The notes beneath the pieces are model-generated. The model was not told the origin of the DNA. It worked only from the letters and a program-made list of their open reading frames with translations, and ran no database searches. From the sequence record PZ445489.1: a DNA stretch of 64,000 nucleotides; one strand, 5' to 3'. Positions 20,049 to 33,202 of this stretch are shown one piece after another. How positions within the stretch are numbered: position 1 is the first letter of the stretch; every line of letters begins with the position of its first letter. This DNA comes from a phage. The translations under genes and the position numbers were made by a program.

Positions 20049-20123
20049 CGGGGTGTAGTCTAAGGGAGAGGCAGGAGTCTTCTAAATTCCTTTATGCAGG
20101 TTCGAATCCTGTCACCTCGGCCA
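20049..20123 (+). tRNA. tRNA-Arg (anticodon TCT)
   Basis: Hand-folded cloverleaf: acceptor cggggtg/cacctcg, anticodon loop CTTCTAA, T-loop TTCGAAT, encoded CCA. Confidence 0.7.
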
Positions 20124-22942: not shown

Positions 22943-23043
22943 GGGTCTTTAAAAATTGCCCCTGAATTTTTAGTGGGGTCACAAATTTTGGTCCTCACCA
23001 CTTATCTGCTATCCTTAAGTGCCCTATGATTTTCCTCTAAAAA

Positions 23044-23104
23044 GTTAAAAAATTTGATTGCTTGAATGCTAAATTCTCTGTATAATATATCTATAAATTT
23101 GAAA
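23044..23104 (+). promoter_or_regulatory. T5-type early promoter
   Basis: TTGCTT 23058-23063, 17-nt spacer, TATAAT 23081-23086. Confidence 0.65.
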
Positions 23105-23116
23105 GAGGAACCAAAT

Positions 23117-23635: not shown

Positions 23636-23655
23636 TATAATATATCTTATAAATT
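23600..23655 (+). promoter_or_regulatory. T5-type promoter inside 3' end of CDS, upstream of tRNAs
   Basis: TTGCTA 23613-23618, 17-nt spacer, TATAAT 23636-23641. Confidence 0.55.
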
Positions 23656-23656
23656 C

Positions 23657-23745
23657 GGAAGAATAGCATAACGGTATTGCAGCAGATTGCTAATCTGTCG
23701 GTTTGAAATATAGCCTTGTGGGTTCGATTCCCGCTTCTTCCGCCA
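23657..23745 (+). tRNA. tRNA-Ser (anticodon GCT)
   Basis: Acceptor ggaagaa/ttcttcc, anticodon loop TTGCTAA, 19-nt variable arm, T-loop TTCGATT, CCA. Confidence 0.7.
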
Positions 23746-23751
23746 AATTCT

Positions 23752-23829
23752 GGTTCTCAAGCTCATATGGTATGAGCACCCGGCTCATAACCGGAAGGTA
23801 CGTAGGTTCGAATCCTCGGGGAGCCACCA
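23752..23829 (+). tRNA. tRNA with anticodon CAT (Met, fMet or Ile2 undetermined)
   Basis: Acceptor ggttctc/gggagcc (2 G-U), anticodon loop CTCATAA, T-loop TTCGAAT, CCA; T-stem has 2 mismatches. Confidence 0.55.
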
Positions 23830-23848
23830 AATTAAATAGAGGTCACAA

Positions 23849-24037
23849 ATGGATCTATATATAGTTTATGTTGTGTTTATCCAAGATAGAGAATACCCGG
23901 ATGAATATAAAAAAGGATATAGGTTAGCCAGAGCTACCTCTGAAGCCCAAGCTATGGATAAAGTGGCAGATTATATGATTACGGTAGAAAACATACACTA
24001 TATCGACTACCTTGAAGCCTCAAAAGTAATTGACTAA
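23849..24037 (+). CDS. hypothetical protein (62 aa)
   Basis: ORF with GAGG RBS. Confidence 0.4.
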   Translation: MDLYIVYVVFIQDREYPDEYKKGYRLARATSEAQAMDKVADYMITVENIHYIDYLEASKVID

Positions 24038-24046
24038 GGAGACTAT

Positions 24047-24232
24047 ATGTCTAAGTTTCAAGAACTCAAGCAAGAGCTAGAAGAATGTGCCTGCCCTGAG
24101 TGTAGAGGAATTGGTGAAAGTTCTGATGCAGAAGCAGGAGATACTTTTTGCAATATCTGGGTTTGCCCAAATTGCAATGGTACAGGTATTAATCCTAACT
24201 GTGGTATTTCCCTAGATATTGAACGAGGATAA
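24047..24232 (+). CDS. Cys-rich zinc-ribbon-like protein (61 aa)
   Basis: CACPECRG...CPNCNG paired CxxC motifs. Confidence 0.4.
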   Translation: MSKFQELKQELEECACPECRGIGESSDAEAGDTFCNIWVCPNCNGTGINPNCGISLDIERG

Positions 24233-24333
24233 TACCTGTAAAACTAAAAGATTATTATATTGGTTGGTTTGTGGGACTAGTAGTAGGATTTTCACTAGGC
24301 TATAATATGTATCAACTAATAAACTGATTACAC

Positions 24334-24410
24334 GGGGGTGTAATCGAATTGGCATAGGTACTGGACTTAAAATTCAGGTTTTGTGGGTTCGAATCCCACC
24401 ACCCCTACCA
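24334..24410 (+). tRNA. tRNA, anticodon TAA (Leu codon UUA) with short variable loop
   Basis: Acceptor gggggtg/cacccct, anticodon stem ctgga/ttcag, loop CTTAAAA, T-loop TTCGAAT, CCA. Confidence 0.55.
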
Positions 24411-24425
24411 AACTAAGGAAATAAG

Positions 24426-24593
24426 ATGTATAGACATCCACCTCCGCCAACACGTCGTTCTAGAGAAGTTATCCTCATGGAATTGACTAAAAACTTCAAG
24501 GCAACTCTTGAAGATAGAGATCTAGGTACAGATGAAGACGTTGATTTCATTTGTAAACTATTAAAAATGAAGCTGGAGAAACATCATGGCTAA
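24426..24593 (+). CDS. hypothetical protein (55 aa)
   Basis: ORF with AAGGAA RBS; stop overlaps next start. Confidence 0.4.
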   Translation: MYRHPPPPTRRSREVILMELTKNFKATLEDRDLGTDEDVDFICKLLKMKLEKHHG

Positions 24594-24792
24594 CCGTGAA
24601 ATTACTATGCAACGAATCATGACTAAAGGCATGATAGCCGAGGCAGGTATTGAACAAGAAGTAAAAGGCTATTACGAACAGATTAAGACTATTATAGACT
24701 CTGCTAAAAACACCGGAGAAAAAGAACACGGTGCAGCAATTATGGCTATAACTCTTATTAGCCTAGACTTAGCTGAAGAATCTGGAGTTTAG
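24586..24792 (+). CDS. hypothetical protein (68 aa)
   Basis: ORF, ATGGCTAA overlap with upstream ORF. Confidence 0.45.
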   Translation: MANREITMQRIMTKGMIAEAGIEQEVKGYYEQIKTIIDSAKNTGEKEHGAAIMAITLISLDLAEESGV

Positions 24793-24809
24793 CTCCTCCA
24801 AACAGAATT

Positions 24810-24868
24810 TTTAAAAATGTACTTGCCTTTTGCTTTAAATTTCTGATATAATAGTTGTATAAATTGAT
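24810..24868 (+). promoter_or_regulatory. T5-type early promoter
   Basis: TTGCCT 24823-24828, 18-nt spacer, TATAAT 24847-24852. Confidence 0.6.
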
Positions 24869-24882
24869 GAAGGAGTTAACGA

Positions 24883-25158
24883 ATGCAAAATCGTGTTGTA
24901 GCAACTGGTATTGAAAGTGCAATCTGCAAATCCTGGGAAGACTGGGAAGGTGAGATTGAGTGGCTCTATCTCTATAACGTAGATCTTCTACCGGAGGTTA
25001 AAGCTAAATGTATTGAAGCTGGCATGGCTCCAGATGCAAAAGCTGATATTGATATTTCAATGTCTGAACTTAAAGGTCGTGTAATTACTGTTAGTGATGA
25101 GGGCGAAGAAGTTTTCGAACTTCCGTTCTCCTTAACTGTCACTCCTAAGTTCGACTAA
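24883..25158 (+). CDS. hypothetical protein (91 aa)
   Basis: ORF with AAGGAG RBS. Confidence 0.5.
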   Translation: MQNRVVATGIESAICKSWEDWEGEIEWLYLYNVDLLPEVKAKCIEAGMAPDAKADIDISMSELKGRVITVSDEGEEVFELPFSLTVTPKFD

Positions 25159-25181
25159 CTAATACAGCACTGAGCAAGTTC

Positions 25182-25238
25182 TTTAAAATTTGACTTGCTC
25201 AGTGCCTTAAAACTTGGTATAATATTTACCTAATTTGG
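25182..25238 (+). promoter_or_regulatory. T5-type promoter upstream of tRNA block
   Basis: TTGCTC 25195-25200, 16-nt spacer, TATAAT 25217-25222. Confidence 0.55.
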
Positions 25239-25288
25239 AAACATATTTAAAAGTGTTTAAATGAGAATTTTTGAATACTTCTAAATAT

Positions 25289-25379
25289 GTTGGATTAGTA
25301 TCGTAGAGGTAGCGAAGCAGACTGTAAATCTGCCGACTCGGAAGGGTCTCGGGTGGTTCGACTCCATCATCCAACACCA
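25289..25379 (+). tRNA. tRNA-Tyr (anticodon GTA)
   Basis: Acceptor gttggat/atccaac, anticodon stem gcaga/tctgc, loop CTGTAAA, 18-nt variable arm, T-loop TTCGACT, CCA. Confidence 0.7.
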
Positions 25380-25386
25380 AATTTAA

Positions 25387-25463
25387 GTCCTGTTAGACAA
25401 ACTGGTAAAGTCACTACCCTTTCAAGGTAGGATTTGCGGGTTCGATCCCCGCACAGGACGCCA
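25387..25463 (+). tRNA. tRNA-Glu (anticodon TTC)
   Basis: Acceptor gtcctgt/acaggac, anticodon stem ctacc/ggtag, loop CTTTCAA, T-loop TTCGATC, CCA. Confidence 0.7.
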
Positions 25464-25471
25464 ATTTCTGC

Positions 25472-25548
25472 ATTCCTAGAGTGTTACTGGACAGCATGTC
25501 GGTCTCCAAAACCGTACGGTCTAGGTTCGAGTCCTAGTAGGTTTGCCA
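25472..25548 (+). tRNA. tRNA-Trp (anticodon CCA), possibly degenerate
   Basis: Perfect T-arm ctagg-TTCGAGT-cctag, anticodon loop CTCCAAA, CCA; acceptor stem has two U-U mismatches. Confidence 0.5.
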
Positions 25549-25554
25549 AAATTT

Positions 25555-25629
25555 GCACCTTTAGCTGAGATGGATTAGCGCTTGCCTGAAGAGCTTGAGA
25601 GGTTCGTTCGATACGAACAGGGTGCACCA
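25555..25629 (+). tRNA. tRNA-Phe (anticodon GAA)
   Basis: Acceptor gcacctt/agggtgc, T-arm gttcg-TTCGATA-cgaac, loop CTGAAGA; anticodon stem has 2 mismatches. Confidence 0.5.
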
Positions 25630-25646
25630 AATTGAAGGAGCTGCTG

Positions 25647-25919
25647 ATGCATCCTGAAAACTTCTTTATTTACTGCGCTGATAAGTCGCTAAAACGTAGA
25701 ATTAACAAAGTCTACCATTATCGTGCTAGTCAACAGCCTTATGTATATGCTTTTGACGGTGATCACATTCCATTAGAACAATTATCTTGTGATTACATGA
25801 TATTAAAGAACTTTGACGAGACGAAGATCTCAAGCGTTCACAATCGGCAGAATCCATTAACGTGGAAATATAAGAAGAAAAAGAAAGGCATCAAATTCTT
25901 AAAAAATATAGTTGCTTAG
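25647..25919 (+). CDS. hypothetical protein (90 aa)
   Basis: ATG 25647 after AAGGAG RBS (track start 25632 is TTG). Confidence 0.5.
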   Translation: MHPENFFIYCADKSLKRRINKVYHYRASQQPYVYAFDGDHIPLEQLSCDYMILKNFDETKISSVHNRQNPLTWKYKKKKKGIKFLKNIVA

Positions 25920-25955
25920 TTTCCAAAAGTTCTGTATAATAATTACATAAATTGA
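25898..25955 (+). promoter_or_regulatory. T5-type promoter
   Basis: TTGCTT 25912-25917, 17-nt spacer, TATAAT 25935-25940. Confidence 0.55.
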
Positions 25956-25988
25956 ACTGGAGAAGCAACATGACAGAACAAGATAAAC

Positions 25989-26064
25989 CGACCGTTGGCT
26001 GAATGGCTTAGGCGAAGGATTGCAAATCCTTTTTATGTGAGTTCAAATCTCATGCGGTCGTCCA
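25989..26064 (+). tRNA. tRNA-Cys (anticodon GCA)
   Basis: Acceptor cgaccgt/gcggtcg, anticodon stem aagga/tcctt, loop TTGCAAA, T-loop TTCAAAT, CCA. Confidence 0.65.
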
Positions 26065-26071
26065 AATTTTA

Positions 26072-26154
26072 GGGTCGTTAGCCAAGCGGTTTGGCGGTGG
26101 ACTGTTAATCCATGTCGAAAGACAACGTAGGTTCGAATCCTACACGGCCCGCCA
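26072..26154 (+). tRNA. tRNA-Asn (anticodon GTT) with 13-nt variable hairpin
   Basis: Acceptor gggtcgt/acggccc, D-stem gcca/tggc, anticodon loop CTGTTAA, variable gtcGAAAgac, T-arm gtagg-TTCGAAT-cctac, CCA. Confidence 0.6.
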
Positions 26155-26256
26155 AATTCTGTGTAGAGTTAAGTAAACCGGTAGCCAACCAGCTATCATT
26201 GCTGACATCGAATTCAGCCACAGATACCATTTTCATTAATAACTGAGGAAACAAGC

Positions 26257-26442
26257 ATGTCCAAGAATGTAATTGCGCAGCTAGAAGTTCATCGTGATAG
26301 CACTATCAACAATATTGAAGTTGAAAAGAAATACATCGAAGAACTTAAACATGATATACTAGTGAGTCTCAACCGTCTTAATGTACGAAAAGAGTTTCTT
26401 AAAGAACTTAATGCAGCTATTGAAAAACTCAAAGCTGAGTAA
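26257..26442 (+). CDS. hypothetical protein (61 aa)
   Basis: ORF with GAGGAA RBS. Confidence 0.45.
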   Translation: MSKNVIAQLEVHRDSTINNIEVEKKYIEELKHDILVSLNRLNVRKEFLKELNAAIEKLKAE

Positions 26443-26451
26443 ATGAATTAT

Positions 26452-26528
26452 GCGACCGGGGCTGGCTTGGTAATGGTACTCCCCTGTCACGGGAGAGAAT
26501 GTGGGTTCAAATCCCATCGGTCGCGCCA
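26452..26528 (+). tRNA. tRNA-Asp (anticodon GTC)
   Basis: Perfect acceptor gcgaccg/cggtcgc, anticodon stem ctccc/gggag, loop CTGTCAC, T-loop TTCAAAT, CCA. Confidence 0.75.
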
Positions 26529-26554
26529 AATTAATTTAGTATGAGAAATATGCT

Positions 26555-26902
26555 ATGATTAATGCTAAAGAAGAATTGTTACTTGCCCTAAAGAATACTA
26601 ATTCTGAAGTTAAGTGTATTAAGATAGAATTCGGTTATTATGGAGACAAAGAAGTTTGGGTATTACCCGTAGGTTATACAGAAAAAGATATTGAAGATTT
26701 TCTAAATAATCTAGACTTTAAATATGATTCTGGTTTCGGTGGACAATTGCTTTATGGTAACGTATGGTTTACTGATGGAACTTGGTTAGAACGTGGTGAA
26801 TATGATGGTTCTGAATGGTGGGAATATAAGACTACACCAGCAATTCCAGAGGAATGCCGAACAATTAATGGTGAAGTAGATCGTACTTTACTATTAAATT
26901 AA
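26555..26902 (+). CDS. hypothetical protein (115 aa)
   Basis: ORF. Confidence 0.5.
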   Translation: MINAKEELLLALKNTNSEVKCIKIEFGYYGDKEVWVLPVGYTEKDIEDFLNNLDFKYDSGFGGQLLYGNVWFTDGTWLERGEYDGSEWWEYKTTPAIPEECRTINGEVDRTLLLN

Positions 26903-27024
26903 CAAAATCTCAGTGCAGAACACGGAGCTAGCAATTCGGAAGTGCTGACTCATGATAAGCTGCCTATGTACTTGCGAAGCGGTCGTGTCCAAGACTCGGA
27001 CTCTTGCACTGAAAACAATCAAAC

Positions 27025-27145
27025 ATTCTAGCGTGGTTGATGGGGAAACCAGCTTGGCTAGGGCAGAAGCTCGTTCGATTCGAGTGAAAGAATGGTTCTC
27101 GTAAGTCCGCACAAGTGATAGCAGGTTCGAGTCCTGTCTAGAATG
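27025..27145 (+). ncRNA. tRNA-like RNA with about 50-nt internal expansion (about 121 nt)
   Basis: Perfect 7-bp acceptor pairing attctag/ctagaat 113 nt apart, canonical T-arm gcagg-TTCGAGT-cctgt, D-arm-like hairpin; no normal anticodon arm. Confidence 0.35.
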
Positions 27146-27334
27146 ACATATTCTGGAGGTTTTGTGAATTACAAAGAATTAGATCTTTTAGCAAATAAAT
27201 TCACAGAGCTATCTGATAACGTTGTATCAAAGGACTCCAACATAGATAATTTTATTACTGAATATCGTGATGGTATAATCTCTAAACAAGAGTTGTTAGA
27301 TAAAACGTATAAATATTTAAAGGGGTTCAGCTAA
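27143..27334 (+). CDS. hypothetical protein (63 aa)
   Basis: ORF; start overlaps end of tRNA-like element; weak RBS. Confidence 0.35.
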   Translation: MTYSGGFVNYKELDLLANKFTELSDNVVSKDSNIDNFITEYRDGIISKQELLDKTYKYLKGFS

Positions 27335-27631
27335 ACGGTTAAGCACTGTCCTACTTCGGACAGAGGGAGTAACACGTAGTCTCCCAAACTCCCCCAAATT
27401 TAGATTTCTGCTTCCTAGAGAACGGACTTCTGAATAAACAAGGCGATGAAGTTTCCGGCCGGTTCTAGTCGCTAAAGTCCCTCTAACGGGGCGTAAGTAA
27501 ATGAAAGTTTACTTATTATGTAGGTTCCGATAGATCGGCGGGTCTATTCTGGCATTTAAGAGAGGTCTCGCAAACTTCTTTGTCAGCCGTGGGGTTGGTA
27601 GCCTCCAGGTGGCCTACACAATAAGTAAATT

Positions 27632-27692
27632 TATTAAAAATTCATTTGCTATTCTGCTATATTATCTGTATAATATATTTTATAAAGTGAAG
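27632..27692 (+). promoter_or_regulatory. T5-type early promoter
   Basis: TTGCTA 27646-27651, 17-nt spacer, TATAAT 27669-27674. Confidence 0.65.
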
Positions 27693-27706
27693 AGAAGGAA
27701 AGCAAA

Positions 27707-27865
27707 ATGAAACACAAGATAGCTCAAGTTTTTATGACATTATGGTGTATGCCAATAGCTATAACAGCATTTAATCTAGATACTTTTACTATAGAAGAAA
27801 AATGTATCGGATTAGTTAGCGGCTTTAGTATGCTGGGCTTATCTTTGTTGTGGTTGAAGAAATAA
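27707..27865 (+). CDS. small hydrophobic membrane protein (52 aa)
   Basis: ATG after GAAGGAAAG RBS and promoter; below ORF-track cutoff. Confidence 0.4.
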   Translation: MKHKIAQVFMTLWCMPIAITAFNLDTFTIEEKCIGLVSGFSMLGLSLLWLKK

Positions 27866-27868
27866 TAT

Positions 27869-27946
27869 TCTCCGTGTAGCTCAGTTTGGCCAGAGCGTTT
27901 CGTTTGGGGCGATAGGGTCGGGGGTTCAAATCCTCCCACGGAGACC
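27869..27946 (+). tRNA. tRNA-Pro (anticodon TGG)
   Basis: Acceptor ctccgtg/cacggag, D-arm TAGCTCAGTTTGGCCAGAGC, loop TTTGGGG, T-loop TTCAAAT, CCA. Confidence 0.65.
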
Positions 27947-27952
27947 AAACAA

Positions 27953-28030
27953 TTGCGGGTTAGATCTCTGGTAGAGATCGCTAGTCTCATAAGCTAGAAA
28001 GAGGTAGGTTCGATTCCTGCACCCGCTTCC
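27953..28030 (+). tRNA. tRNA with anticodon CAT (Met, fMet or Ile2 undetermined)
   Basis: D-stem gatc/gatc, anticodon stem ctagt/gctag, loop CTCATAA, T-loop TTCGATT, CCA; position 1:72 is U-U. Confidence 0.6.
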
Positions 28031-28220
28031 ACTTTAATAGAGGATTTCGAAATGAAAGTATTTCGATTAGTAGTAAGTGACAAACGTTTAGGTAATAATA
28101 CCTCAAGATCCTTACTTGCACATTATGGTAAAAATTGGGATGAAGTAATGGCAGAGTTTAATACTAATCACCCTTACTTGAAAGTTCACTCTATTAAAGA
28201 GGTATATAATGGTTACTAAT

Positions 28221-28298
28221 AGATCGCTAGCTCAACTGGATAAGAGTAGCGGACCTTTAATCCGTCAGTTCTGGGTTCGAATCCCAGGCGATCTACCA
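28221..28298 (+). tRNA. tRNA-Lys (anticodon TTT)
   Basis: Acceptor agatcgc/gcgatct, D-arm GCTCAACTGGATAAGAGT, loop CCTTTAA, T-arm ctggg-TTCGAAT-cccag, CCA. Confidence 0.65.
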
Positions 28299-28302
28299 AA
28301 TT

Positions 28303-28376
28303 GCTCGGTTAGTTTAATGGGAGAACCCCGTCTTTACACGGCGGTTGTGATAGTTCGATTCTATCACCGAGTACCA
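28303..28376 (+). tRNA. tRNA-Val (anticodon TAC)
   Basis: Acceptor gctcggt/accgagt, anticodon stem ccgtc/ggcgg, loop TTTACAC, T-arm gatag-TTCGATT-ctatc, CCA. Confidence 0.65.
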
Positions 28377-28395
28377 ATTAACTCAAAATAAGGAA

Positions 28396-28764
28396 TTGCA
28401 AATGCAATTATCAAACAAGATTCAAGGTTATTTCGGTCATGTGACAATGGAGTTCGCATTGCAGCATGGCTGGGATATGGAAAAAGATCTATCGGAATTT
28501 TATGAGTCTCATAAAGAGATTGATCTTAGTTCTGTCTATTTGGGATTATCTACTGGTCAAGAACTTACAGAATATGATGTATTCAAGGCAAGTCAAGGTG
28601 AGATAACACCTAGTTTTGCCGAGTTCTGGCTAGGAATTACCTTGAAGGATAATGCACCAGATGAAGGTGTGGTTATGCAAAGTATGCACTCTGGAAGCTC
28701 TGATTACCTTTACGTTCGTGATGTAAAGGAACTACAGGAAATCGCTAAAAATGTACTTGCTTAA
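28396..28764 (+). CDS. hypothetical protein (122 aa)
   Basis: ORF with AAGGAA RBS. Confidence 0.5.
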   Translation: MQMQLSNKIQGYFGHVTMEFALQHGWDMEKDLSEFYESHKEIDLSSVYLGLSTGQELTEYDVFKASQGEITPSFAEFWLGITLKDNAPDEGVVMQSMHSGSSDYLYVRDVKELQEIAKNVLA

Positions 28765-28803
28765 TGCTTAATTTCTTGTTATAATATTTATATAAATTGA
28801 TGC
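28743..28803 (+). promoter_or_regulatory. T5-type promoter (overlaps 3' end of CDS)
   Basis: TTGCTT 28757-28762, 17-nt spacer, TATAAT 28780-28785. Confidence 0.6.
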
Positions 28804-29124
28804 GAAAATAGCTGCCTAGATACCAGGTGTATGACGTCTACACTAGCAGAGCTACCGAAAAAGAGATCCTCAGGATAAACGTCGTAGCAAAATTAGTCTG
28901 GTATCCATCAATTTAGTTCACTAAGGTATTAGCTCGACCTAGGACTGGCTGCCAAAAAGCACGATCCCTACAATTCGGGAGAAGTTCTAGATTAGTCCAC
29001 TAGATTCAGCGGCAACTGAATAGTGTATCGGGTTTGCGAGATGACGCAGTTCCTTCCGCTCGAAGCGAAGGTGCTGTAGTTACGCCGAGCTAATAGCCTT
29101 AGTAAACTTACAGGGGTTAACGCA

Positions 29125-29511
29125 GTGTGTACAAAAACATGTAGAGCCTGTGGGAATGAATATCCGTTAACAACCGAATATTTTTATTCGAATGGATTTA
29201 CTCCTAATGGCACAAAGAAGTGGAAGCCAACATGTAAAGCATGTGAAAAAGCTGAACGAGTAGCTGGACATGAAGAATTAATTAAAGAAGTATTTCCTGT
29301 ATTAGAATGTAGTATTTGTGGATATAATAGGTGTAAACAAGCCCTAGATTTCCACCGTACTAATCCAGAAGAAAAGGAATACTCCATTGCAAGGTTTAGA
29401 ACTTCTCGTAGAAACAGAGAAGTAGTAATAGCAGAACTTAAAAAGTGCGTACTATTATGCTCTAACTGCCATAGAGAAGTACATGCTGGATTAATAAATT
29501 TGGGCGAATAG
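29125..29511 (+). CDS. HNH endonuclease
   Basis: C-terminal LLCSNCHREVHAG HNH motif plus CxxC pairs; GTG start; stop codon lies inside tRNA-Ala acceptor stem. Confidence 0.6.
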   Translation: MCTKTCRACGNEYPLTTEYFYSNGFTPNGTKKWKPTCKACEKAERVAGHEELIKEVFPVLECSICGYNRCKQALDFHRTNPEEKEYSIARFRTSRRNREVVIAELKKCVLLCSNCHREVHAGLINLGE

Positions 29512-29577
29512 TGTCAGCGGGAGCACACCAGACTTGCAATCTGGTAGGGAGGGTTCGAGTCCCTCTTTGTCCACCAA
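29503..29577 (+). tRNA. tRNA-Ala (anticodon TGC)
   Basis: Acceptor gggcgaa/tttgtcc (2 G-U), anticodon stem ccaga/tctgg, loop CTTGCAA, T-arm gaggg-TTCGAGT-ccctc, CCA. Confidence 0.7.
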
Positions 29578-29582
29578 ATACG

Positions 29583-29659
29583 CGTGATTGATGGAATTGG
29601 CATACATACCGTCCTTAGAAGTCGGGTTTTGAGGGTTCGAATCCCTTGTCACGCACCAA
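29583..29659 (+). tRNA. tRNA, anticodon TAG (Leu codon CUA) with short variable loop
   Basis: Acceptor gcgtgat/gtcacgc, D-loop AATTGGCAT shared with tRNA at 24334, loop CTTAGAA, T-loop TTCGAAT, CCA. Confidence 0.55.
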
Positions 29660-29771
29660 ATTTGATGGTCAGAGTAAATTAAACCTACTATCTCGGTTGA
29701 GCTGTTTTAATGGGTTCGAATCCCAGCGAGGCGTAACTGCCTGGTGTGATAGAGGCATCATCTTATTATTG

Positions 29772-29862
29772 GAAGAGCAAATCGAATTGGCGACGAAAAC
29801 CGCTTGGAAAGTGGCTGACTGGTAAAACGGCTTGAGAGTTCAAATCTCTCCTCTTCCGCCAA
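29772..29862 (+). tRNA. tRNA-Ser (anticodon GGA)
   Basis: Acceptor ggaagag/ctcttcc, anticodon loop TTGGAAA, 18-nt variable arm, T-arm gagag-TTCAAAT-ctctc, CCA; architecture parallels E. coli tRNA-Ser. Confidence 0.65.
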
Positions 29863-29868
29863 ATAATA

Positions 29869-29958
29869 GAAGATAGGACGTAGTGGTACGTAACTGGTCT
29901 TGAAAACCAGCCCGCTGTAGCGATACGGTGATGGTTCGACTCCATTATCTTCTGCCAA
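29869..29958 (+). tRNA. tRNA-Ser (anticodon TGA)
   Basis: Acceptor agaagat/atcttct, perfect anticodon stem ctggt/accag, loop CTTGAAA, 19-nt variable arm, T-loop TTCGACT, CCA. Confidence 0.7.
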
Positions 29959-29977
29959 TTAGCTATAAGGAAACCTT

Positions 29978-30151
29978 ATGAGCAAAACAGTTACTGTAAC
30001 AATGAAGGATGGCAAAAAATTTAAAGCATGTCTTCATGAAACAGATAAGGGATGGATGGCTTACTTGCCACACCTAGATTCCACCGGGTATGGAATGACC
30101 CAACGTGAAGCTATTGTTGATGCTTTAAATGAGGCTTCTGCTGGTTTATAA
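29978..30151 (+). CDS. small protein (57 aa), possible HicB-like fold
   Basis: ATG after AAGGAAACC RBS; KDGKKFKACLHETDKGWMAYLPHLDSTGYG loosely recalls HicB-type antitoxin N-termini; unverified. Confidence 0.3.
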   Translation: MSKTVTVTMKDGKKFKACLHETDKGWMAYLPHLDSTGYGMTQREAIVDALNEASAGL

Positions 30152-30520
30152 AAAATTCTTGAAGTATGCCGGAATCGGTAGACGGGGCTGCCTAAAAGGT
30201 TTATAGGGAACATCCACTCCCTGCAACATACCTCATAAAGCGGCTGAGATAAATGGTCTATCTCGTGAAGGTTCAAGTCCTTCTGCTTCTTGATACATCT
30301 ATGGCTCAAAGTGTAACGGTGCTATTTGATGCTCTTGGTAAGACTTCCCCGACATGCGTTCGGGAGTAAGCTGCTAAGACTAGAGTAGAAGAGTTTCTGA
30401 GAGCCGCCACAATTGAAAATTCGTACTCGTCTTGAGCTGCGTGCAATAGGAGATAACTTGATTAGTATTCTAGAACATGCTAATTGAGGAAGGTTTCGCT
30501 AACCCTGCGAGTTTTCAATT

Positions 30521-30597
30521 GTGGCTATATCATAATTGGTTAATGATCCTGATTGTGAATCAGGCCTATGTGGATTCGAATTCCACTAGCCACCCCA
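30521..30597 (+). tRNA. tRNA-His (anticodon GTG)
   Basis: Acceptor gtggcta/tagccac, D-stem tcat/atga, perfect anticodon stem cctga/tcagg, loop TTGTGAA, T-arm gtgga-TTCGAAT-tccac, CCA. Confidence 0.75.
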
Positions 30598-30622
30598 AAT
30601 TAACTTAAATAGGAAATAAAAT

Positions 30623-30829
30623 ATGGCTGATTTCTGCAAACAATGCTCCATTGATATGTGGGGCAGAGATACTGGTGATCTTTCTGGTTTGATTACAGAA
30701 GCTGAGGTCAAAGAAGGTTATGGTGTAGTTGTGGTTTGCGAAGGGTGCGGAGTTATTCGAGTAGATCATGAAGGCAAACGTTTAGAAGATCCAAAAAGTA
30801 TTAAGAAGAAGGTTAGCCAAGTCGGTTAA
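30623..30829 (+). CDS. Cys-rich small protein (68 aa)
   Basis: CKQCS...CEGCG motifs; 3' end overlaps tRNA-Gln by about 23 nt. Confidence 0.4.
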   Translation: MADFCKQCSIDMWGRDTGDLSGLITEAEVKEGYGVVVVCEGCGVIRVDHEGKRLEDPKSIKKKVSQVG

Positions 30830-30882
30830 GGCTGGGGTCTCTGAAACCCCGATCAGTGGTTCGAACCCACTACCTTCTGCCA
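30807..30882 (+). tRNA. tRNA-Gln (anticodon CTG)
   Basis: Acceptor agaaggt/accttct, perfect anticodon stem ggggt/acccc, loop CTCTGAA, T-arm agtgg-TTCGAAC-ccact, CCA. Confidence 0.7.
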
Positions 30883-30888
30883 AACAGT

Positions 30889-30966
30889 TGGGGATTAGCT
30901 TAGCCTGGTCTAAAGCTTCGGCCTTTGAAGTCGAGATCATTGGTTCAAATCCAATATCCCCTGCCA
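30889..30966 (+). tRNA. tRNA-Gln (anticodon TTG)
   Basis: D-stem gctt/aagc, anticodon loop CTTTGAA, T-arm attgg-TTCAAAT-ccaat, CCA; position 1:72 is U-U. Confidence 0.6.
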
Positions 30967-30974
30967 AACAATAA

Positions 30975-31050
30975 GCGGTTAAGCACACGGGTTGTGTCGC
31001 AGGCCTTCCAAGCCTCGCTGAGTAGGGTTCGATTCCCTCTAGCCGCTCCA
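30975..31050 (+). tRNA. tRNA-Gly (anticodon TCC)
   Basis: Acceptor gcggtta/tagccgc, anticodon loop CTTCCAA, T-loop TTCGATT, CCA. Confidence 0.6.
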
Positions 31051-31066
31051 ACTTTAAGGGAACATT

Positions 31067-31288
31067 ATGCACGTTTTTGAGTTTCGTAATAAAAGTACTG
31101 ATAAACGAGTTATTGTTATTGGGGAAACATACCGAGCATACGAACAAACTGACGGTTCTGTTATCCTGAATGATGAGAAAGGAGGTTTTAGCTTTTATCC
31201 CAAAGAAACTTACGAAGAATTTCGTACAAAGTTTCTTCTACCAGACTGGCTAGAAGTAGCGCAGCAACGAGAACCCGAAGATGGCTGA
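31067..31288 (+). CDS. hypothetical protein (73 aa)
   Basis: ORF. Confidence 0.45.
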   Translation: MHVFEFRNKSTDKRVIVIGETYRAYEQTDGSVILNDEKGGFSFYPKETYEEFRTKFLLPDWLEVAQQREPEDG

Positions 31289-31445
31289 CAACCTAAAAGT
31301 CAAGATCGATAAACAAAAGAAACGTGTAGAAGTAGAGATTGGTGAAGAACGTGTAGCCTTCACCTTTGAATTTCTACAACAAATGGCAATGACAGTTATG
31401 ACTGATAAGTCTCCTGTTATTGAAAAAGAAATCCCGTTGAAATAA
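31281..31445 (+). CDS. hypothetical protein (54 aa)
   Basis: ATGGCTGA overlap with upstream stop; below ORF-track cutoff. Confidence 0.3.
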   Translation: MADNLKVKIDKQKKRVEVEIGEERVAFTFEFLQQMAMTVMTDKSPVIEKEIPLK

Positions 31446-31455
31446 CGGGATCATC

Positions 31456-31530
31456 GCTCCTAAAGCATTGCTGGCGATGCAGTTGCCTTGTAAGCATCTG
31501 AACCGGGTTCGATTCCTGGTGGGAGCACCA
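31456..31530 (+). tRNA. tRNA-Thr (anticodon TGT)
   Basis: Acceptor gctccta/tgggagc, D-stem gcat/atgc, anticodon loop CTTGTAA, T-loop TTCGATT, CCA. Confidence 0.65.
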
Positions 31531-31531
31531 A

Positions 31532-31592
31532 ATTTAAAAATTCATTTGCCTTCTCTCTTATTTCTTGTTATAATATCTATATAAATTAATGA
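31532..31592 (+). promoter_or_regulatory. T5-type early promoter
   Basis: TTGCCT 31546-31551, 17-nt spacer, TATAAT 31569-31574. Confidence 0.65.
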
Positions 31593-31604
31593 GAGGGAAA
31601 CCAA

Positions 31605-31895
31605 ATGAAACGTTATCTTTCTGTAGTATTCCAAACTGGTGGTCAAAGATATACCTATGAATTTCCATCTTCTTGGAAAATCAAAGAAGGTGATCAAGTA
31701 GTAGTGTTAACACCGCGTGAAGGATATAAAGTAGTAACGGTTAAACAAGTATTCCCAAAAGATCATGAACCAGCTAAAGGCATTCGCTATAAGATGATTC
31801 ATGGTGTGGTTCGTCAAGTACCACGAACTGAGGTAGAAGTAGATAAGACTGGAGAAGCTAAATTCCATTATACTTCTTACTTAGACAGTGTATGA
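31605..31895 (+). CDS. hypothetical protein (96 aa)
   Basis: ORF with GAGAGGGAAA RBS. Confidence 0.5.
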   Translation: MKRYLSVVFQTGGQRYTYEFPSSWKIKEGDQVVVLTPREGYKVVTVKQVFPKDHEPAKGIRYKMIHGVVRQVPRTEVEVDKTGEAKFHYTSYLDSV

Positions 31896-31910
31896 TGTAA
31901 ATATTCTAAT

Positions 31911-31987
31911 ACTTCGGTAGCTTAGCGATCTAAAGCACTCGGCTGATAACCGAGAGATCGGGGGTTTAAATCCCTCCCGGAGTACCA
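31911..31987 (+). tRNA. tRNA-Ile (anticodon GAT)
   Basis: Acceptor acttcgg/ccggagt, D-stem gctt/aagc, perfect anticodon stem ctcgg/ccgag, loop CTGATAA, T-loop TTTAAAT (atypical), CCA. Confidence 0.65.
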
Positions 31988-32083
31988 AATCTAGGAATTA
32001 AGACTATGCGTCCAGGAAAGTTTAAAAAAGCTAATTGGTCTAAAGAGTATAAAGAATACTTACTTAGTCTAGTAAAACATAAC

Positions 32084-32159
32084 AGTTAGTTGGCAGAGTG
32101 GTTATGCACCTCCTTCATACGGAGCGACTACAGTGGTTCAAATCCACTACTAACTACCA
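32084..32159 (+). tRNA. tRNA with anticodon CAT (Met, fMet or Ile2 undetermined)
   Basis: Perfect acceptor agttagt/actaact, anticodon loop TTCATAC, T-arm agtgg-TTCAAAT-ccact, CCA. Confidence 0.6.
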
Positions 32160-33198: not shown

Positions 33199-33202
33199 TT
33201 AA

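What the first reader, a model, noticed from the sequence alone, without database searches (positions are those of the whole stretch)
23657..32159. tRNA cluster composition and interleaving with small ORFs and promoters
I fold 26 tRNA genes here plus tRNA-Arg at 20049. They include three with anticodon CAT, three Ser, two Gln and one with a 13-nt variable hairpin (Asn, 26072-26154). Several have mismatched stems. Small ORFs and T5-type promoters are interleaved, and two ORFs overlap tRNA ends. This is broadly what is reported for the T5 tRNA region, but boundaries and isotypes need software confirmation.
Basis: partly seen in the sequence, partly recalled or inferred. Interest (0 to 1): 0.35.

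Follow-up and report, generated by a model that had tools for sequence, protein, structure and literature searches.

The report
T5-type phage tRNA gene cluster
This is the well-known tRNA-rich early region of a T5-like coliphage (25 tRNA genes plus tRNA-Arg, with small genes, strong promoters and stable RNAs between them), so the finding is ordinary, although its tRNA-Asn carries an extra hairpin arm that turns out to be common in phages and nearly absent from cellular genomes.

Summary

The three CAU, three Ser and two Gln tRNAs, the 83-nt Asn with a 13-nt variable hairpin, the mismatched stems and the ORF/tRNA overlaps are all confirmed. Homologues of eight annotated T5 promoters are present.

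The window is a Tequintavirus, 99% identical to phage vB_EcoD-Elw. It is collinear with the annotated T5 tRNA region, including T5's eight "stable RNAs of unknown function".

It is not the T5 set exactly. Leu(UAA) is extra, and seven slots (Asn, Lys, Tyr, Pro, Trp, Leu-UAG, Ser-GGA) hold alleles unlike T5's.

Function is established in the literature. The tRNAs supply A/U-rich codons and replace host tRNAs cut by PARIS, retron-Eco7, PrrC and P2 OLD.

Verdict: already known, low interest.

One side result may be new. The long-arm tRNA-Asn is a conserved, GNRA-capped, phage-associated tRNA type: more than 120 viral contigs against 30 pattern matches (19 confirmed long-arm tRNA-Asn genes) in 185,579 species genomes.

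The parts
19419..20048 (+). Homologue of T5 'RNAX' (stable RNA of unknown function). It contains a weak tRNA-like element at 19475-19546.
   Evidence: 589/626 identity to T5 rnaX. Rfam tRNA 22.3 bits, sub-threshold.
20049..20123 (+). tRNA-Arg(UCU)
   Evidence: 49.3 bits. 75/75 identical to T5 tRNA-Arg.
23038..23110 (+). Promoter homologous to T5 P15a
   Evidence: 69/73 identity. TTGCTT-17-TATAAT followed by ATAAAT.
23066..23635 (+). Toprim/primase-like ORF (T5.076 homologue). 100% identical to SP15 E0157_075, probably the anti-retron 'ORF75'.
   Evidence: Toprim_2; PHROG DNA primase. (189/189 identity). PMC11555353. Equating locus tag E0157_075 with the paper's ORF75 is my inference.
23593..23668 (+). 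Promoter homologous to T5 P15b, immediately upstream of Ser(GCU)
   Evidence: 75/75 identity..
23657..23745 (+). tRNA-Ser(GCU), class II
   Evidence: 88/89 identical to T5 Ser3.
23752..23829 (+). tRNA with anticodon CAU, homologue of T5 tRNA-Ile2(CAU). Elongator-type C11:G24 pair.
   Evidence: 40.3 bits. (ARAGORN at relaxed threshold only). (76/78 identity).
23849..24232 (+). Two small ORFs: 23849-24037 (62 aa) and 24047-24232 (61 aa, Q-like PHROG). They occupy the slot where T5 has hegA.
   Evidence: Segment 24038-24328 is absent from the closest relative, Elw.
24334..24410 (+). tRNA-Leu(UAA). Absent from T5, present in 20 T5-like loci as a single allele.
24426..24792 (+). Small ORFs homologous to T5.074 (24426-24593) and T5.073 (24586-24792)
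24804..24878 (+). Promoter homologous to T5 P15c
   Evidence: 75/75 identity.
24883..25158 (+). Small ORF homologous to T5.072
25177..25246 (+). Promoter homologous to T5 P14a. In SP15 the promoter ahead of tRNA-Tyr is reported to be exceptionally strong.
   Evidence: 67/70 identity. PMC11555353.
25289..25379 (+). tRNA-Tyr(GUA), a non-T5 allele. Its anticodon stem-loop is identical to E. coli tyrU; its variable arm differs.
   Evidence: (60/72 identity to T5).
25387..25463 (+). tRNA-Glu(UUC)
   Evidence: 75/77 identical to T5.
25472..25548 (+). tRNA-Trp(CCA), a non-T5 allele with two U.U mismatches in the acceptor stem
   Evidence: (36.3 bits).
25555..25629 (+). tRNA-Phe(GAA), with two mismatches in the anticodon stem
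25647..25919 (+). Small ORF homologous to T5.071
25892..25966 (+). Promoter homologous to T5 P14b
   Evidence: 73/75 identity.
25989..26064 (+). tRNA-Cys(GCA)
   Evidence: 76/76 identical to T5.
26072..26154 (+). tRNA-Asn(GUU), 83 nt, with a 13-nt variable region that forms a GUC/GAC stem capped by GAAA. Non-T5 allele.
   Evidence: (59 bits).
26157..26229 (+). Homologue of T5 'RNA3' (putative tRNA-like RNA)
   Evidence: 73/73 identity. (fold z-score -3.0).
26257..26442 (+). Small ORF (DUF7337), T5.068 homologue
26452..26528 (+). tRNA-Asp(GUC)
   Evidence: 77/77 identical to T5.
26555..26902 (+). ORF homologous to T5.067
27024..27148 (+). Homologue of T5 'RNA2' (tRNA-like stable RNA)
   Evidence: 121/125 identity. 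One search gives weak tRNA-like calls here.
27143..27517 (+). Variable insert: a 63-aa ORF (27143-27334) plus a degenerate tRNA-like remnant (27349-27427). It occupies the slot where other T5-like phages carry tRNA-Gly(GCC).
27518..27620 (+). Homologue of T5 'RNAIV'
   Evidence: 101/103 identity.
27627..27701 (+). Promoter homologous to T5 P13a
   Evidence: 66/75 identity..
27707..27865 (+). Small ORF homologous to T5.066
27870..27947 (+). tRNA-Pro(UGG), a non-T5 allele
   Evidence: 57/77 identity.
27954..28031 (+). Initiator-type tRNA-fMet(CAU): U1.U72 mismatch and A11:U24 pair
   Evidence: 78/78 identical to T5 tRNAfM.
28052..28219 (+). Small ORF homologous to T5.065
28221..28298 (+). tRNA-Lys(UUU), a non-T5 allele. 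Anticodon loop CCUUUAA, so C33 in place of U33. Also C16 and C41.
   Evidence: (58.5 bits).
28303..28376 (+). tRNA-Val(UAC)
   Evidence: 72/74 identical to T5.
28402..28764 (+). ORF (120 aa, PHROG 7572) with no T5 counterpart in this slot
28738..28802 (+). Promoter homologous to T5 P13b
   Evidence: 59/64 identity.
28927..29098 (+). Homologue of T5 'RNA2H'. The preceding 28800-28926 segment is found in only 3 of 30 related loci.
   Evidence: 167/172 identity..
29125..29511 (+). HNH homing-endonuclease ORF inserted between RNA2H and tRNA-Ala. It overlaps Ala by 10 nt and is absent from this site in T5.
   Evidence: PHROG 2255, E=4.6e-31..
29502..29576 (+). tRNA-Ala(UGC)
   Evidence: 75/75 identical to T5.
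29582..29658 (+). tRNA-Leu(UAG), 77 nt, with a short (class I-like) variable region. Non-T5 allele; T5's is 85 nt.
29771..29861 (+). tRNA-Ser(GGA), a weak-scoring non-T5 allele
   Evidence: relaxed ARAGORN only. (19.7 bits). (25 of 28 loci).
29868..29957 (+). tRNA-Ser(UGA)
   Evidence: 32.2 bits.
29978..30151 (+). Small ORF homologous to T5.063
30158..30302 (+). Homologue of T5 'RNA1' (tRNA-like stable RNA). Cloverleaf-like fold with a roughly 60-nt extra domain.
   Evidence: 125/143 identity. (25.2 bits)..
30303..30409 (+). Homologue of T5 'RNAI'
   Evidence: 98/107 identity.
30414..30519 (+). Homologue of T5 'RNAIII'
   Evidence: 105/106 identity. (z-score -2.9).
30521..30597 (+). tRNA-His(GUG). 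The base at -1 (position 30520) is U, not G.
   Evidence: 78/78 identical to T5.
30623..30829 (+). Small ORF homologous to T5.062. Its last 23 nt overlap tRNA-Gln(CUG). Its 3' end equals the 3' end of T5 hegD.
30807..30882 (+). tRNA-Gln(CUG). It has intact stems here; the T5 copy is annotated as a pseudogene.
30889..30966 (+). tRNA-Gln(UUG)
30975..31050 (+). tRNA-Gly(UCC), low-scoring but 76/76 identical to T5 tRNA-Gly1. The T5 annotation notes that tRNA works as an amber suppressor after an anticodon change.
31067..31445 (+). Small ORFs homologous to T5.060 (31067-31288) and T5.059 (31281-31445, DUF7293)
31456..31530 (+). tRNA-Thr(UGU), identical to the Thr tRNA of phage Bas32 (IrisVonRoten). 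G39 disrupts the UAAU motif next to the AriB cleavage site.
   Evidence: bioRxiv 10.64898/2026.07.10.737580.
31526..31600 (+). Promoter homologous to T5 P11. It overlaps the 3' end of tRNA-Thr, as in T5.
   Evidence: 69/75 identity..
31605..31895 (+). ORF homologous to T5.058
31911..31987 (+). tRNA-Ile(GAU)
   Evidence: 65.5 bits. 77/77 identical to T5.
32006..32089 (+). 27-aa ORF homologous to T5.057. It overlaps tRNA-Met by 6 nt.
32084..32159 (+). Elongator tRNA-Met(CAU)
   Evidence: 76/76 identical to T5.

Best explanation
This is the tRNA-rich early region of a Tequintavirus (T5-like phage).

Anatomy: 25 tRNA genes, plus tRNA-Arg 3.5 kb upstream, all lie on one strand and all encode their CCA end. 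They sit in short runs behind at least eight strong sigma-70 early promoters of the T5 type. Between them are about twenty small ORFs, one HNH homing-endonuclease gene, and eight stable or tRNA-like RNAs of unknown function.

Expression (inferred by homology): host RNA polymerase makes polycistronic tRNA-mRNA transcripts, and host RNase P and other processing enzymes release the tRNAs.

Function: the tRNAs give the phage its own near-complete decoding set, which does two things.
1. It raises capacity for the A/U-ending codons that this 39% G+C genome uses far more than E. coli does (AGA, CUA, AUA, GGA, ACA, UUA, GUA).
2. It replaces host tRNAs that abortive-infection nucleases destroy. The phage copies are only 49-67% identical to the host's, carry changes at or near known cleavage sites, and are strongly expressed. 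[quoted passage not shown]

Variation: individual tRNA slots are exchanged as cassettes between otherwise nearly identical phages, probably helped by homing endonucleases. This window therefore carries several alleles that T5 does not have.

What is shown here: gene content, homology, allele structure, codon bias. What is shown by others on near-identical sequences: anti-defence function. What is inferred: processing, and the behaviour of this window's particular Lys, Asn and Tyr alleles.
For: - Gene calls.
- Identity of the window: 99% to vB_EcoD-Elw and matches in 615 phage records, mostly Salmonella and Escherichia T5-like phages.
- Collinearity with the annotated T5 region, including promoters and stable RNAs.
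- Codon bias: window 39.4% G+C against 52%. AGA is 5.4x, CUA 4.3x, AUA 3.5x, GGA 2.4x, ACA 2.1x, UUA 2.0x and GUA 1.9x enriched over E. coli, and each has a cognate phage tRNA.
- Divergence from the host and state of the AriB site. Lys has C41 and C16, two of the three protective substitutions defined in PMC12409363. Thr has G39, as in T5.
- The window's Thr(UGU) is identical to the Bas32 tRNA. That tRNA stayed intact and rescued phages from P2 OLD (bioRxiv 10.64898/2026.07.10.737580).
- Literature: PMC11464382 and PMC12409363 (PARIS); PMC11555353 (retron-Eco7, PrrC170, the strong Tyr promoter, the 'TRR' name, ORF75).
- The flanking Toprim ORF is 189/189 identical to SP15 E0157_075.
- Cassette mosaicism. 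2-8 alleles at 58-77% identity per slot among about 30 loci whose flanks are about 95% identical. The 97-99% identical phage Elw carries the other Asn allele and an extra Lys(CUU).
Against: - The codon-supply test is only suggestive. Watson-Crick codons of the phage tRNAs against all other codons give Mann-Whitney p=0.075. With wobble the set covers almost the whole code, so the test has little power.
- The window's Asn allele keeps the host's AriB site (UAAUCC) and its Tyr keeps the host's anticodon stem-loop. Sequence alone does not show resistance for these two.
- Its Lys allele lacks the strongest protective change, U39A.
- Several genes score poorly or have mismatched stems (Trp, Ser-GGA, Gly-UCC, Phe). 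They may be weak or inactive. The T5 annotation itself marks Gln(CUG) as a pseudogene.
- No expression data exist for this window.
Confidence: 0.9

Rival explanations
1. Codon compensation only. The cluster exists solely to match tRNA supply to the phage's A/T-rich codon usage, and any protection from tRNA-cutting defences is incidental.
For: The codons most enriched in the phage relative to E. coli (AGA, CUA, AUA, GGA, ACA, UUA, GUA) each have a phage tRNA. Most anticodons start with U.
Against: The cluster also supplies tRNAs for codons that are not enriched or are depleted in the phage: GAA 0.99x, AAC 0.88x, GAC 0.64x, CAC 0.57x, AUC 0.55x, CAG 0.70x. Experiments show that T5-family Lys, Thr, Asn and Tyr tRNAs are required to plate on hosts with PARIS, retron-Eco7 or OLD (PMC11464382, PMC12409363, PMC11555353, bioRxiv 10.64898/2026.07.10.737580). 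Deep allelic divergence within one slot is not what codon matching predicts.
Confidence: 0.1
2. Largely selfish or neutral cargo. The tRNA cassettes and tRNA-like RNAs persist because homing endonucleases and recombination spread them, and many are decaying pseudogenes with no benefit to the phage.
For: An HNH endonuclease gene sits in the cluster and T5 has three more. There are degenerate tRNA-like remnants at 27349-27427, RNA2, RNA3 and RNA1. Whole-region deletions are viable in T5 (T5Mos, T5123; PMC11464382). Loci L021, L022, L024, L026 and L027 carry only 7-18 tRNAs.
Against: Most genes keep intact cloverleaves, an encoded CCA and Rfam scores of 42-65 bits. Most slots are retained across hundreds of phages. 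Deletion mutants lose the ability to infect defence-carrying hosts, according to the literature above.
Confidence: 0.15
3. The tRNAs and tRNA-like RNAs act mainly as RNA-processing punctuation. RNase P and RNase E sites would cut out and stabilise the small-ORF mRNAs, so decoding is secondary.
For: tRNAs and small ORFs alternate tightly, with gaps of 5-25 nt and some overlaps. Stable RNAs of unknown function lie exactly between coding units.
Against: No direct evidence from any call. Complete isoacceptor coverage, conserved anticodons and identity elements, and the rescue experiments done with isolated tRNA genes all argue that decoding is the selected function.
Confidence: 0.05

Closest known systems
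Bacteriophage T5 tRNA gene region (NC_005859 / AY543070, about 28.0-37.3 kb, plus tRNA-Arg at 40.8 kb)
   Same: Same gene order. Same promoters (P11, P13a/b, P14a/b, P15a/b/c). Same eight stable RNAs. Eighteen tRNAs at 96-100% identity. Same ORF/tRNA overlaps.
   Different: The window has Leu(UAA), which T5 lacks. It lacks hegA, hegC, hegD and T5.069. It has an HNH ORF at 29125-29511, an insert at 27143-27517 and an ORF at 28402-28764. Its Asn, Lys(UUU), Tyr, Pro, Trp, Leu(UAG) and Ser(GGA) are different alleles. Its Gln(CUG) looks intact, whereas T5's is annotated as a pseudogene.
'tRNA-rich region' (TRR) of T5-like phage SP15 and the BASEL Tequintaviruses (PMC11555353; Bas32 IrisVonRoten, MZ501075)
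   Same: Same region and the same flanking Toprim ORF (100% identical to SP15 E0157_075). Bas32 shares the window's Thr allele (identical), its long-arm Asn type and its C33 Lys type.
   Different: SP15 carries the majority Lys(UUU) allele, 79 nt with U33. Bas32 has an extra Lys(CUU) and more homing-endonuclease genes.
Phage T4 tRNA cluster with the SegB homing endonuclease
   Same: A clustered set of phage tRNA genes with stable RNAs of unknown function and an embedded homing endonuclease that promotes inheritance of the region (PMC2330249, PMC13096335).
   Different: T4 has 8 tRNAs, not 26, and belongs to an unrelated phage family. There is no sequence homology. (The T4 tRNA count is from my own knowledge.)
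Class II (long variable arm) tRNAs: Leu, Ser, Tyr, Sec
   Same: The window's tRNA-Asn has a base-paired extra arm in the variable region, like class II tRNAs.
   Different: The isotype is Asn. The arm is a short 3-4 bp stem, usually capped by GNRA. The D-stem has 4 bp, as in class I. No cellular class II tRNA-Asn is known to me, and 596 Gbp of cellular genomes gave only 19 confirmed long-arm tRNA-Asn genes among 30 pattern matches, more than half of them in large tRNA arrays.
[quoted passage not shown] 2023, PMC10264068)
   Same: The window's Lys(UUU) has a non-canonical anticodon loop (C33), and its Thr and Lys have stem changes next to the AriB site.
   Different: That study concerned mycobacteriophage tRNAs. 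A text search of it found no mention of T5, position 33 or variable arms.

Membership tests
Tequintavirus (T5-type) tRNA-rich early region | DNA homology and gene order shared with T5 28.0-37.3 kb | tested here: met
   T5 features map in order, most at 90-100% identity.
Tequintavirus (T5-type) tRNA-rich early region | T5 early promoters P11, P13a/b, P14a/b, P15a/b/c interleaved with the tRNAs | tested here: met
   all eight map at 88-100% identity. The extended motif TTGCT-N15-19-TATAAT-N7-12-ATAAA occurs 4 times in the window against 0.00 expected.
Tequintavirus (T5-type) tRNA-rich early region | The T5 tRNA complement (24 in the cluster plus Arg) | tested here: met
   Every T5 isoacceptor is present, plus Leu(UAA). 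Seven are divergent alleles.
Tequintavirus (T5-type) tRNA-rich early region | Stable RNAs RNAX, RNA3, RNA2, RNAIV, RNA2H, RNA1, RNAI, RNAIII | tested here: met
   (87-100% identity). Conserved in 23-26 of 30 related loci.
Tequintavirus (T5-type) tRNA-rich early region | Early transcription by host RNA polymerase and processing to mature, charged tRNAs | not testable with these tools
   Needs RNA data from infected cells.
Bacterial initiator tRNA (gene at 27954-28031) | Unpaired 1:72 position | tested here: met
   U1.U72.
Bacterial initiator tRNA (gene at 27954-28031) | A11:U24 pair in the D-stem | tested here: met
   The D-stem is GAUC/GAUC. The rule itself is from established knowledge of E. 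coli tRNA-fMet.
Bacterial initiator tRNA (gene at 27954-28031) | Three consecutive G:C pairs (29-31:39-41) in the anticodon stem | tested here: not met
   The stem is CUAGU/GCUAG, so only G30:C40 is a G:C pair. The gene is nevertheless 78/78 identical to the gene annotated tRNAfM in T5.
tRNA-Ile2 read through lysidine (gene at 23752-23829) | Homology to a tRNA assigned as Ile2(CAU) | tested here: met
   76/78 identical to T5 tRNAI2(CAU). AUA is 3.5x enriched in the phage and no UAU-anticodon tRNA is present.
tRNA-Ile2 read through lysidine (gene at 23752-23829) | TilS recognition and lysidine at position 34 | not testable with these tools
   Needs modification mapping or a TilS assay. Most genome annotations call this gene tRNA-Met.
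Class II (long variable arm) tRNA (Asn at 26072-26154) | Variable region longer than 10 nt that forms a stem-loop | tested here: met
   13 nt, GUC-GAAA-GAC. Compensatory changes in relatives. 54 variable regions fold far better than shuffles.
Class II (long variable arm) tRNA (Asn at 26072-26154) | Isotype Leu, Ser, Tyr or Sec, with a class II D-arm (3-bp D-stem) | tested here: not met
   Anticodon GUU, discriminator G73, 4-bp D-stem GCCA/UGGC.
AriB (PARIS)-resistant phage tRNA variants, as defined in PMC12409363 | Lys(UUU): U39A, A41C and U16C | tested here: inconclusive
   The window's Lys has C41 and C16 but keeps U39. It also has C33.
AriB (PARIS)-resistant phage tRNA variants, as defined in PMC12409363 | Thr(UGU): a substitution in U36-A-A-U-C|A41 | tested here: met
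   UAAGCA, the same as T5.
AriB (PARIS)-resistant phage tRNA variants, as defined in PMC12409363 | Asn(GUU): a substitution in U36-A-A-U-C|C41 | tested here: not met
   The window allele is UAAUCC, identical to E. coli asnT. T5's is UAAGUU.
AriB (PARIS)-resistant phage tRNA variants, as defined in PMC12409363 | Actual resistance to cleavage | not testable with these tools
   Needs an in vitro AriB assay.

The most novel reading that the evidence does not exclude
The extra arm of the window's tRNA-Asn marks an undescribed, phage-associated structural class of tRNA. These are class I tRNAs that have gained a short, usually GNRA-capped hairpin in the variable region. Asn(GUU) is the main case; some phage Thr(UGU), Cys, Trp and Ile(GAU) tRNAs have it too.

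Under this reading the arm is selected because it blocks recognition by a host tRNA-targeting nuclease or toxin while leaving aminoacylation and decoding intact. It would be an alternative to mutating the cleavage site.

A more extreme variant is that the arm together with G73 redirects charging, for example towards SerRS.

The existence, conservation and phage bias of the arm are shown here. Its function is not.
Probability: 0.2. Interest if true: 0.6.

Novelty: already known. Interest (0 to 1): 0.3.

Why it matters
As posed, the finding only re-identifies a textbook feature: the T5 tRNA region, annotated since 2004-2005. A 99%-identical annotated genome is already in GenBank.

The region matters because it is now an active research subject. 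T5-family tRNAs are the best-studied example of viral tRNAs neutralising tRNA-cutting immunity (PARIS, retron-Eco7, PrrC, P2 OLD).

The comparison made here adds three practical points for that field:
- The alleles in one slot differ as much from each other as from the host's, so results obtained with T5's own tRNAs cannot be transferred to other Tequintaviruses without checking.
- The commonest Asn allele in these phages is a long-arm tRNA that keeps the host's AriB site.
- About a hundred phage records carry a Lys(UUU) allele with C33.

If the extra arm proves to be a shield against nucleases, it would be a second, structural route of tRNA-based immune evasion.

Tried and rejected
- **Generic sigma-70 scan.** It gave 27 sites against 34.8 expected, so no enrichment. 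I replaced it with homology to T5's annotated promoters and a T5-specific extended motif.
- **Covariation in the eight stable RNAs.** Their copies in 30 loci are 90-100% identical, too little variation to test a structure. Single-sequence folds are only mildly better than shuffles, with z-scores of -0.9 to -3.0.
- **Long arm as compensation for an unmutated AriB site.** In the unselected Thr(UGU) sample, 6 of 9 long-arm and 11 of 28 short tRNAs keep UAAUC. That is no clear association, so I lowered the probability of an AriB-specific role.
- **Bas34 as a natural test of the long-arm Asn against PARIS.** Its annotated 'tRNA-Asn' is a deletion chimera: Asn 5' part joined to the fMet 3' part. It says nothing either way.
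- **Literature on a long-arm phage tRNA-Asn.** Nothing was found in the searchable library. This is absence of evidence only.
- **ARAGORN artefacts.** Its intron mode and 80% threshold produced many spurious calls, including minus-strand and intron-containing ones. I ignored any call without support from homology. The 'Arg(cct)' in the Phe slot of L023 and the 'Stop(tta)' calls in the RNA1 slot are register artefacts or weak calls.
- **Pfam on the small ORFs.** It gave only DUF7337, DUF7293, Toprim and Gly_radical.

Full report

Yes. ARAGORN at default settings finds 22 tRNA genes between 23657 and 32159 and tRNA-Arg(UCU) at 20049-20123, all on the + strand.

Rfam's tRNA model at its curated threshold finds the same genes plus one more, 23752-23826 (40.3 bits, anticodon CAU). 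E-values range from 5e-12 to 8e-3, far beyond chance.

At a relaxed ARAGORN threshold two further genes appear: Ser(GGA) 29771-29861 and Gly(UCC) 30975-31050. I accept both on independent grounds.
- The Gly gene is 76/76 identical to T5 tRNA-Gly1. The T5 record notes that this tRNA becomes an effective amber suppressor after an anticodon change.
- The Ser(GGA) allele is present in 25 of 28 related loci.

The supported count is therefore 25 plus Arg. The surplus is most likely one of the tRNA-like stable RNAs. RNA1 at 30160-30291 scores 25.2 bits on the tRNA model, which is sub-threshold.

The other details hold:
- Three CAU anticodons (23752, 27954, 32084), three Ser (GCU, GGA, UGA), two Gln (CUG, UUG).
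- An 83-nt Asn whose 13-nt variable region is GUC-GAAA-GAC-AAC.
- Mismatches in the stems of Trp, Phe, Pro, Thr, Leu(UAG), Gly, Ser(GGA), the Ile2-type tRNA, Tyr, Met and the initiator.
- All 26 genes encode CCA.
- At least three ORFs run into the 5' end of a tRNA: 30623-30829 into Gln(CUG), 32006-32089 into Met, 29125-29511 into Ala.

**2. What the window is**

The 10 kb around the cluster matches 615 phage records. Nearly all are Salmonella or Escherichia T5-like phages. The best is Escherichia phage vB_EcoD-Elw at 99% identity (Demerecviridae, Tequintavirus).

The richly annotated T5 reference, NC_005859, maps onto the window feature by feature.
- Eighteen tRNAs map at 96-100% identity.
- Promoters P15a, P15b, P15c, P14a, P14b, P13a, P13b and P11 map at 88-100%.
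- Fifteen of the small ORFs map.
- All eight RNAs that T5's annotators list as 'stable RNA with unknown functions' or 'tRNA-like' map: RNAX, RNA3, RNA2, RNAIV, RNA2H, RNA1, RNAI, RNAIII.

A generic sigma-70 scan is not enriched here (27 sites against 34.8 expected). The T5-specific extended promoter motif is: 4 exact matches against 0.00 expected, and 9 matches in positions 18001-36000 with a slightly looser form.

**3. How it differs from T5**

- Leu(UAA) at 24334 has no T5 counterpart; T5 has hegA in that neighbourhood.
- T5's hegA, hegC, hegD and T5.069 are missing.
- The window has an HNH endonuclease ORF at 29125-29511 (PHROG 2255, E=4.6e-31), wedged between RNA2H and tRNA-Ala.
- An insert at 27143-27517 occupies the slot where other relatives carry tRNA-Gly(GCC).
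- An ORF at 28402-28764 has no T5 counterpart in that slot.

More striking, seven tRNAs are not T5's alleles: Lys(UUU) 44/59 identity, Pro 57/77, Tyr 60/72, Ser(GGA) 68/90, Leu(UAG) only a partial match, and Asn and Trp with no alignable match.

I clustered ARAGORN calls from 30 T5-like loci. The loci were 26 IMG/VR contigs fetched through the flanking Toprim ORF, plus Elw, IrisVonRoten and T5. This is general: most slots hold 2-8 alleles that are only 58-77% identical, while the flanks are about 95% identical. Only His, Phe, Val, Trp and Leu(UAA) are single-allele; Arg(UCU) and the initiator are nearly so (27 of 28 and 22 copies in one cluster).

Even Elw, which is 97-99% identical over the aligned blocks, carries the T5-type Asn plus a 565-bp segment where the window has the long-arm Asn. 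Elw also has an extra Lys(CUU). The cluster is a mosaic of exchangeable cassettes.

**4. What it does**

This rests on established work with T5 and close relatives, plus checks made here.

*(a) Codon supply.* The window is 39.4% G+C against 52% for an E. coli sample. The codons most over-used relative to E. coli each have a cognate phage tRNA: AGA 5.4x, CUA 4.3x, AUA 3.5x, GGA 2.4x, ACA 2.1x, UUA 2.0x, GUA 1.9x. The overall test is only suggestive (p=0.075). Several supplied tRNAs read codons the phage does not favour, so codon supply is not the whole story.

*(b) Replacement of host tRNAs destroyed by abortive-infection nucleases.*
- T5 tRNA-Lys(UUU), Thr(UGU) and Asn(GUU) together neutralise PARIS AriB, which cuts between positions 40 and 41 (PMC11464382, PMC12409363).
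- T5-family tRNA-Tyr, driven by a very strong promoter, overcomes retron-Eco7 PtuAB (PMC11555353).
- SP15 tRNA-Lys overcomes PrrC170 (PMC11555353).
- P2 OLD depletes Thr(UGU), Gly(UCC), fMet, Val(UAC) and Pro(UGG). Phage Thr(UGU) rescues sensitive phages (bioRxiv 10.64898/2026.07.10.737580).

All nine of these isoacceptors are in the window.

Sequence checks:
- The window's tRNAs are 49-67% identical to their E. coli counterparts.
- Its Thr has G39, which breaks the UAAU motif as in T5. It is identical to the Bas32 tRNA that stayed intact under OLD.
- Its Lys has C41 and C16, two of the three protective substitutions defined for T5, but not A39.
- Its Asn keeps the host site UAAUCC, and its Tyr keeps the host anticodon stem-loop. 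Resistance of these two cannot be read from sequence.

The Toprim ORF at the head of the cluster is 189/189 identical to SP15 E0157_075. This is probably the 'ORF75' that inhibits retrons Eco2 and Eco7 in PMC11555353. Equating the locus tag with the paper's ORF number is my inference.

**5. The three CAU tRNAs**

- 27954-28031 is the initiator. It has a U1.U72 mismatch and the A11:U24 pair, and it is 78/78 identical to T5 tRNAfM. It lacks the three G:C pairs of the E. coli initiator anticodon stem.
- 32084-32159 is an elongator Met, 76/76 identical to T5.
- 23752-23829 is 76/78 identical to the gene T5's annotators call tRNA-Ile2(CAU). AUA is enriched 3.5x and there is no UAU anticodon, which fits. 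Lysidine cannot be tested here, and most genome records call this gene Met.

**6. The long-arm tRNA-Asn**

This is the one item that goes beyond the known picture.
- The allele is the commoner one in T5-like phages, 16 of 25 loci. It matches 651 phage records.
- Full-length relatives at 77-89% identity occur in unrelated phage groups: Straboviridae (Winklervirus), Marfavirus and Epseptimavirus. A Phapecoctavirus phage carries an 85-nt long-arm tRNA-Asn whose BLAST match covers only about 63% of the query.
- In those relatives the arm changes by compensatory substitutions: GUC-GAAA-GAC, AUCC-GCAA-GGAU, GUCA-GAAA-UGAC, GUUC-GAAA-GAAC.
It hit only 30 places in 596 Gbp covering 185,579 species.
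- Of those 30, 19 are long-arm tRNA-Asn genes. Eleven of the 19 lie in arrays of 7-36 tRNAs, and several others are in metagenome bins.
- The 54 distinct variable regions fold far better than shuffles: mean -3.08 against -0.50 kcal/mol (sd 0.13). A hairpin of at least 3 bp forms in 78% against 20%. There are 24 different stems. 30 of 42 loops are GNRA.

The same kind of mini-arm occurs in some phage Thr(UGU) (9/37), Cys (6/31), Trp (4/34) and Ile(GAU) (2/44). It does not occur in Lys(UUU) (0/45), His (0/29) or Arg(UCU) (0/37).

I found no paper describing this. The library is incomplete, so this is weak evidence of novelty.

Function is unknown. A role as a shield against a tRNA nuclease is attractive because the allele keeps the host's AriB site. 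However, an association test in Thr was negative, and the only 'natural experiment', Bas34, turned out to be a chimeric gene.

**7. C33 in tRNA-Lys**

The window's Lys(UUU) has the anticodon loop CCUUUAA. About 97 phage records hold this allele at 95% identity or more, and Bas32 has it too.

C33 is not unique to Lys. 37 of 1022 distinct phage tRNAs in my sample have it, including 12 of 44 Ile(GAU). PrrC cuts between positions 33 and 34 (established knowledge), so an effect on that enzyme is conceivable but untested.

**8. Verdict**

The finding is a correct reading of a known structure. It is off by one in the count, and it is right that the region is T5-like.

- Novelty: already known.
- Interest: low (0.3).

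Noticed in passing
L012 12065-12141 (IMGVR_UViG_2974654585_000001): The tRNA in the Trp slot is identical to the window's tRNA-Trp except for one base, which turns the anticodon CCA into CUA. This could be a natural amber-suppressor tRNA in a T5-like phage, or a sequencing error.
   Followed up: partly
L181 10605-10681 (Escherichia phage SelmaRatti = Bas34, MZ501103): The gene annotated tRNA-Asn is a deletion chimera. The D-arm, anticodon arm and long variable arm come from the Asn gene, fused to the T-arm and 3' acceptor strand of the fMet gene, and the 5' acceptor strand is missing. This may explain why Bas34's own 'tRNA-Asn' did not protect it from PARIS in PMC12409363.
   Followed up: partly
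L059-L138 and L004-L029 (phage tRNA arrays): Short GNRA-capped hairpins in the variable region also occur in phage Thr(UGU) (9/37 distinct genes), Cys (6/31), Trp (4/34), Ile(GAU) (2/44) and Phe (3/29). None occur in Lys(UUU), His or Arg(UCU).
   Followed up: partly
window 28221-28298; L004-L138: C at position 33 of the anticodon loop, instead of the near-universal U, is found in 37 of 1022 distinct phage tRNAs. It is concentrated in Ile(GAU), 12 of 44.
   Followed up: partly
window 30520-30521: tRNA-His has U, not G, at position -1 opposite C73. T5's annotators include this base in the 78-nt gene. E. coli HisRS normally depends on G-1, so how this tRNA is charged is unclear.
   Followed up: no
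window 19419-20048, 26157-26229, 27024-27148, 27518-27620, 28927-29098, 30158-30519: Eight RNAs that the T5 record calls stable RNAs of unknown function are conserved at 90-100% in 23-26 of 30 related loci. RNA1 folds as a cloverleaf with a roughly 60-nt extra domain. RNA2 looks like two overlapping degenerate tRNAs. Their function is still unknown.
   Followed up: partly
window 23066-23635: The Toprim/primase-like ORF at the head of the cluster is 100% identical to SP15 E0157_075, probably the 'ORF75' reported to inhibit retrons Eco2 and Eco7 (PMC11555353).
   Followed up: partly
L183, L184, L188, L207 (Verrucosispora and Micromonospora genomes): Actinobacterial chromosomes carry arrays of 23-36 tRNA genes within 8 kb. 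These arrays include a 89-90-nt long-arm tRNA-Asn.
   Followed up: no
window 29582-29658: The window's tRNA-Leu(UAG) and tRNA-Leu(UAA) are 77 nt with a 5-nt variable region, so they lack the long arm that defines cellular tRNA-Leu. T5's Leu(UAG) is 85 nt with the arm. This is the reverse of the situation in Asn.
   Followed up: no
window 32434-32802: Just downstream of the cluster lies a GrcA-like glycyl-radical ORF (Pfam Gly_radical, E=3.7e-18). Relatives annotate it variously as formate acetyltransferase or pyruvate formate-lyase.
   Followed up: no
window 13304-13344 and 14487-14527: Two more exact matches to the extended T5-type promoter motif lie outside the finding's range.
   Followed up: no
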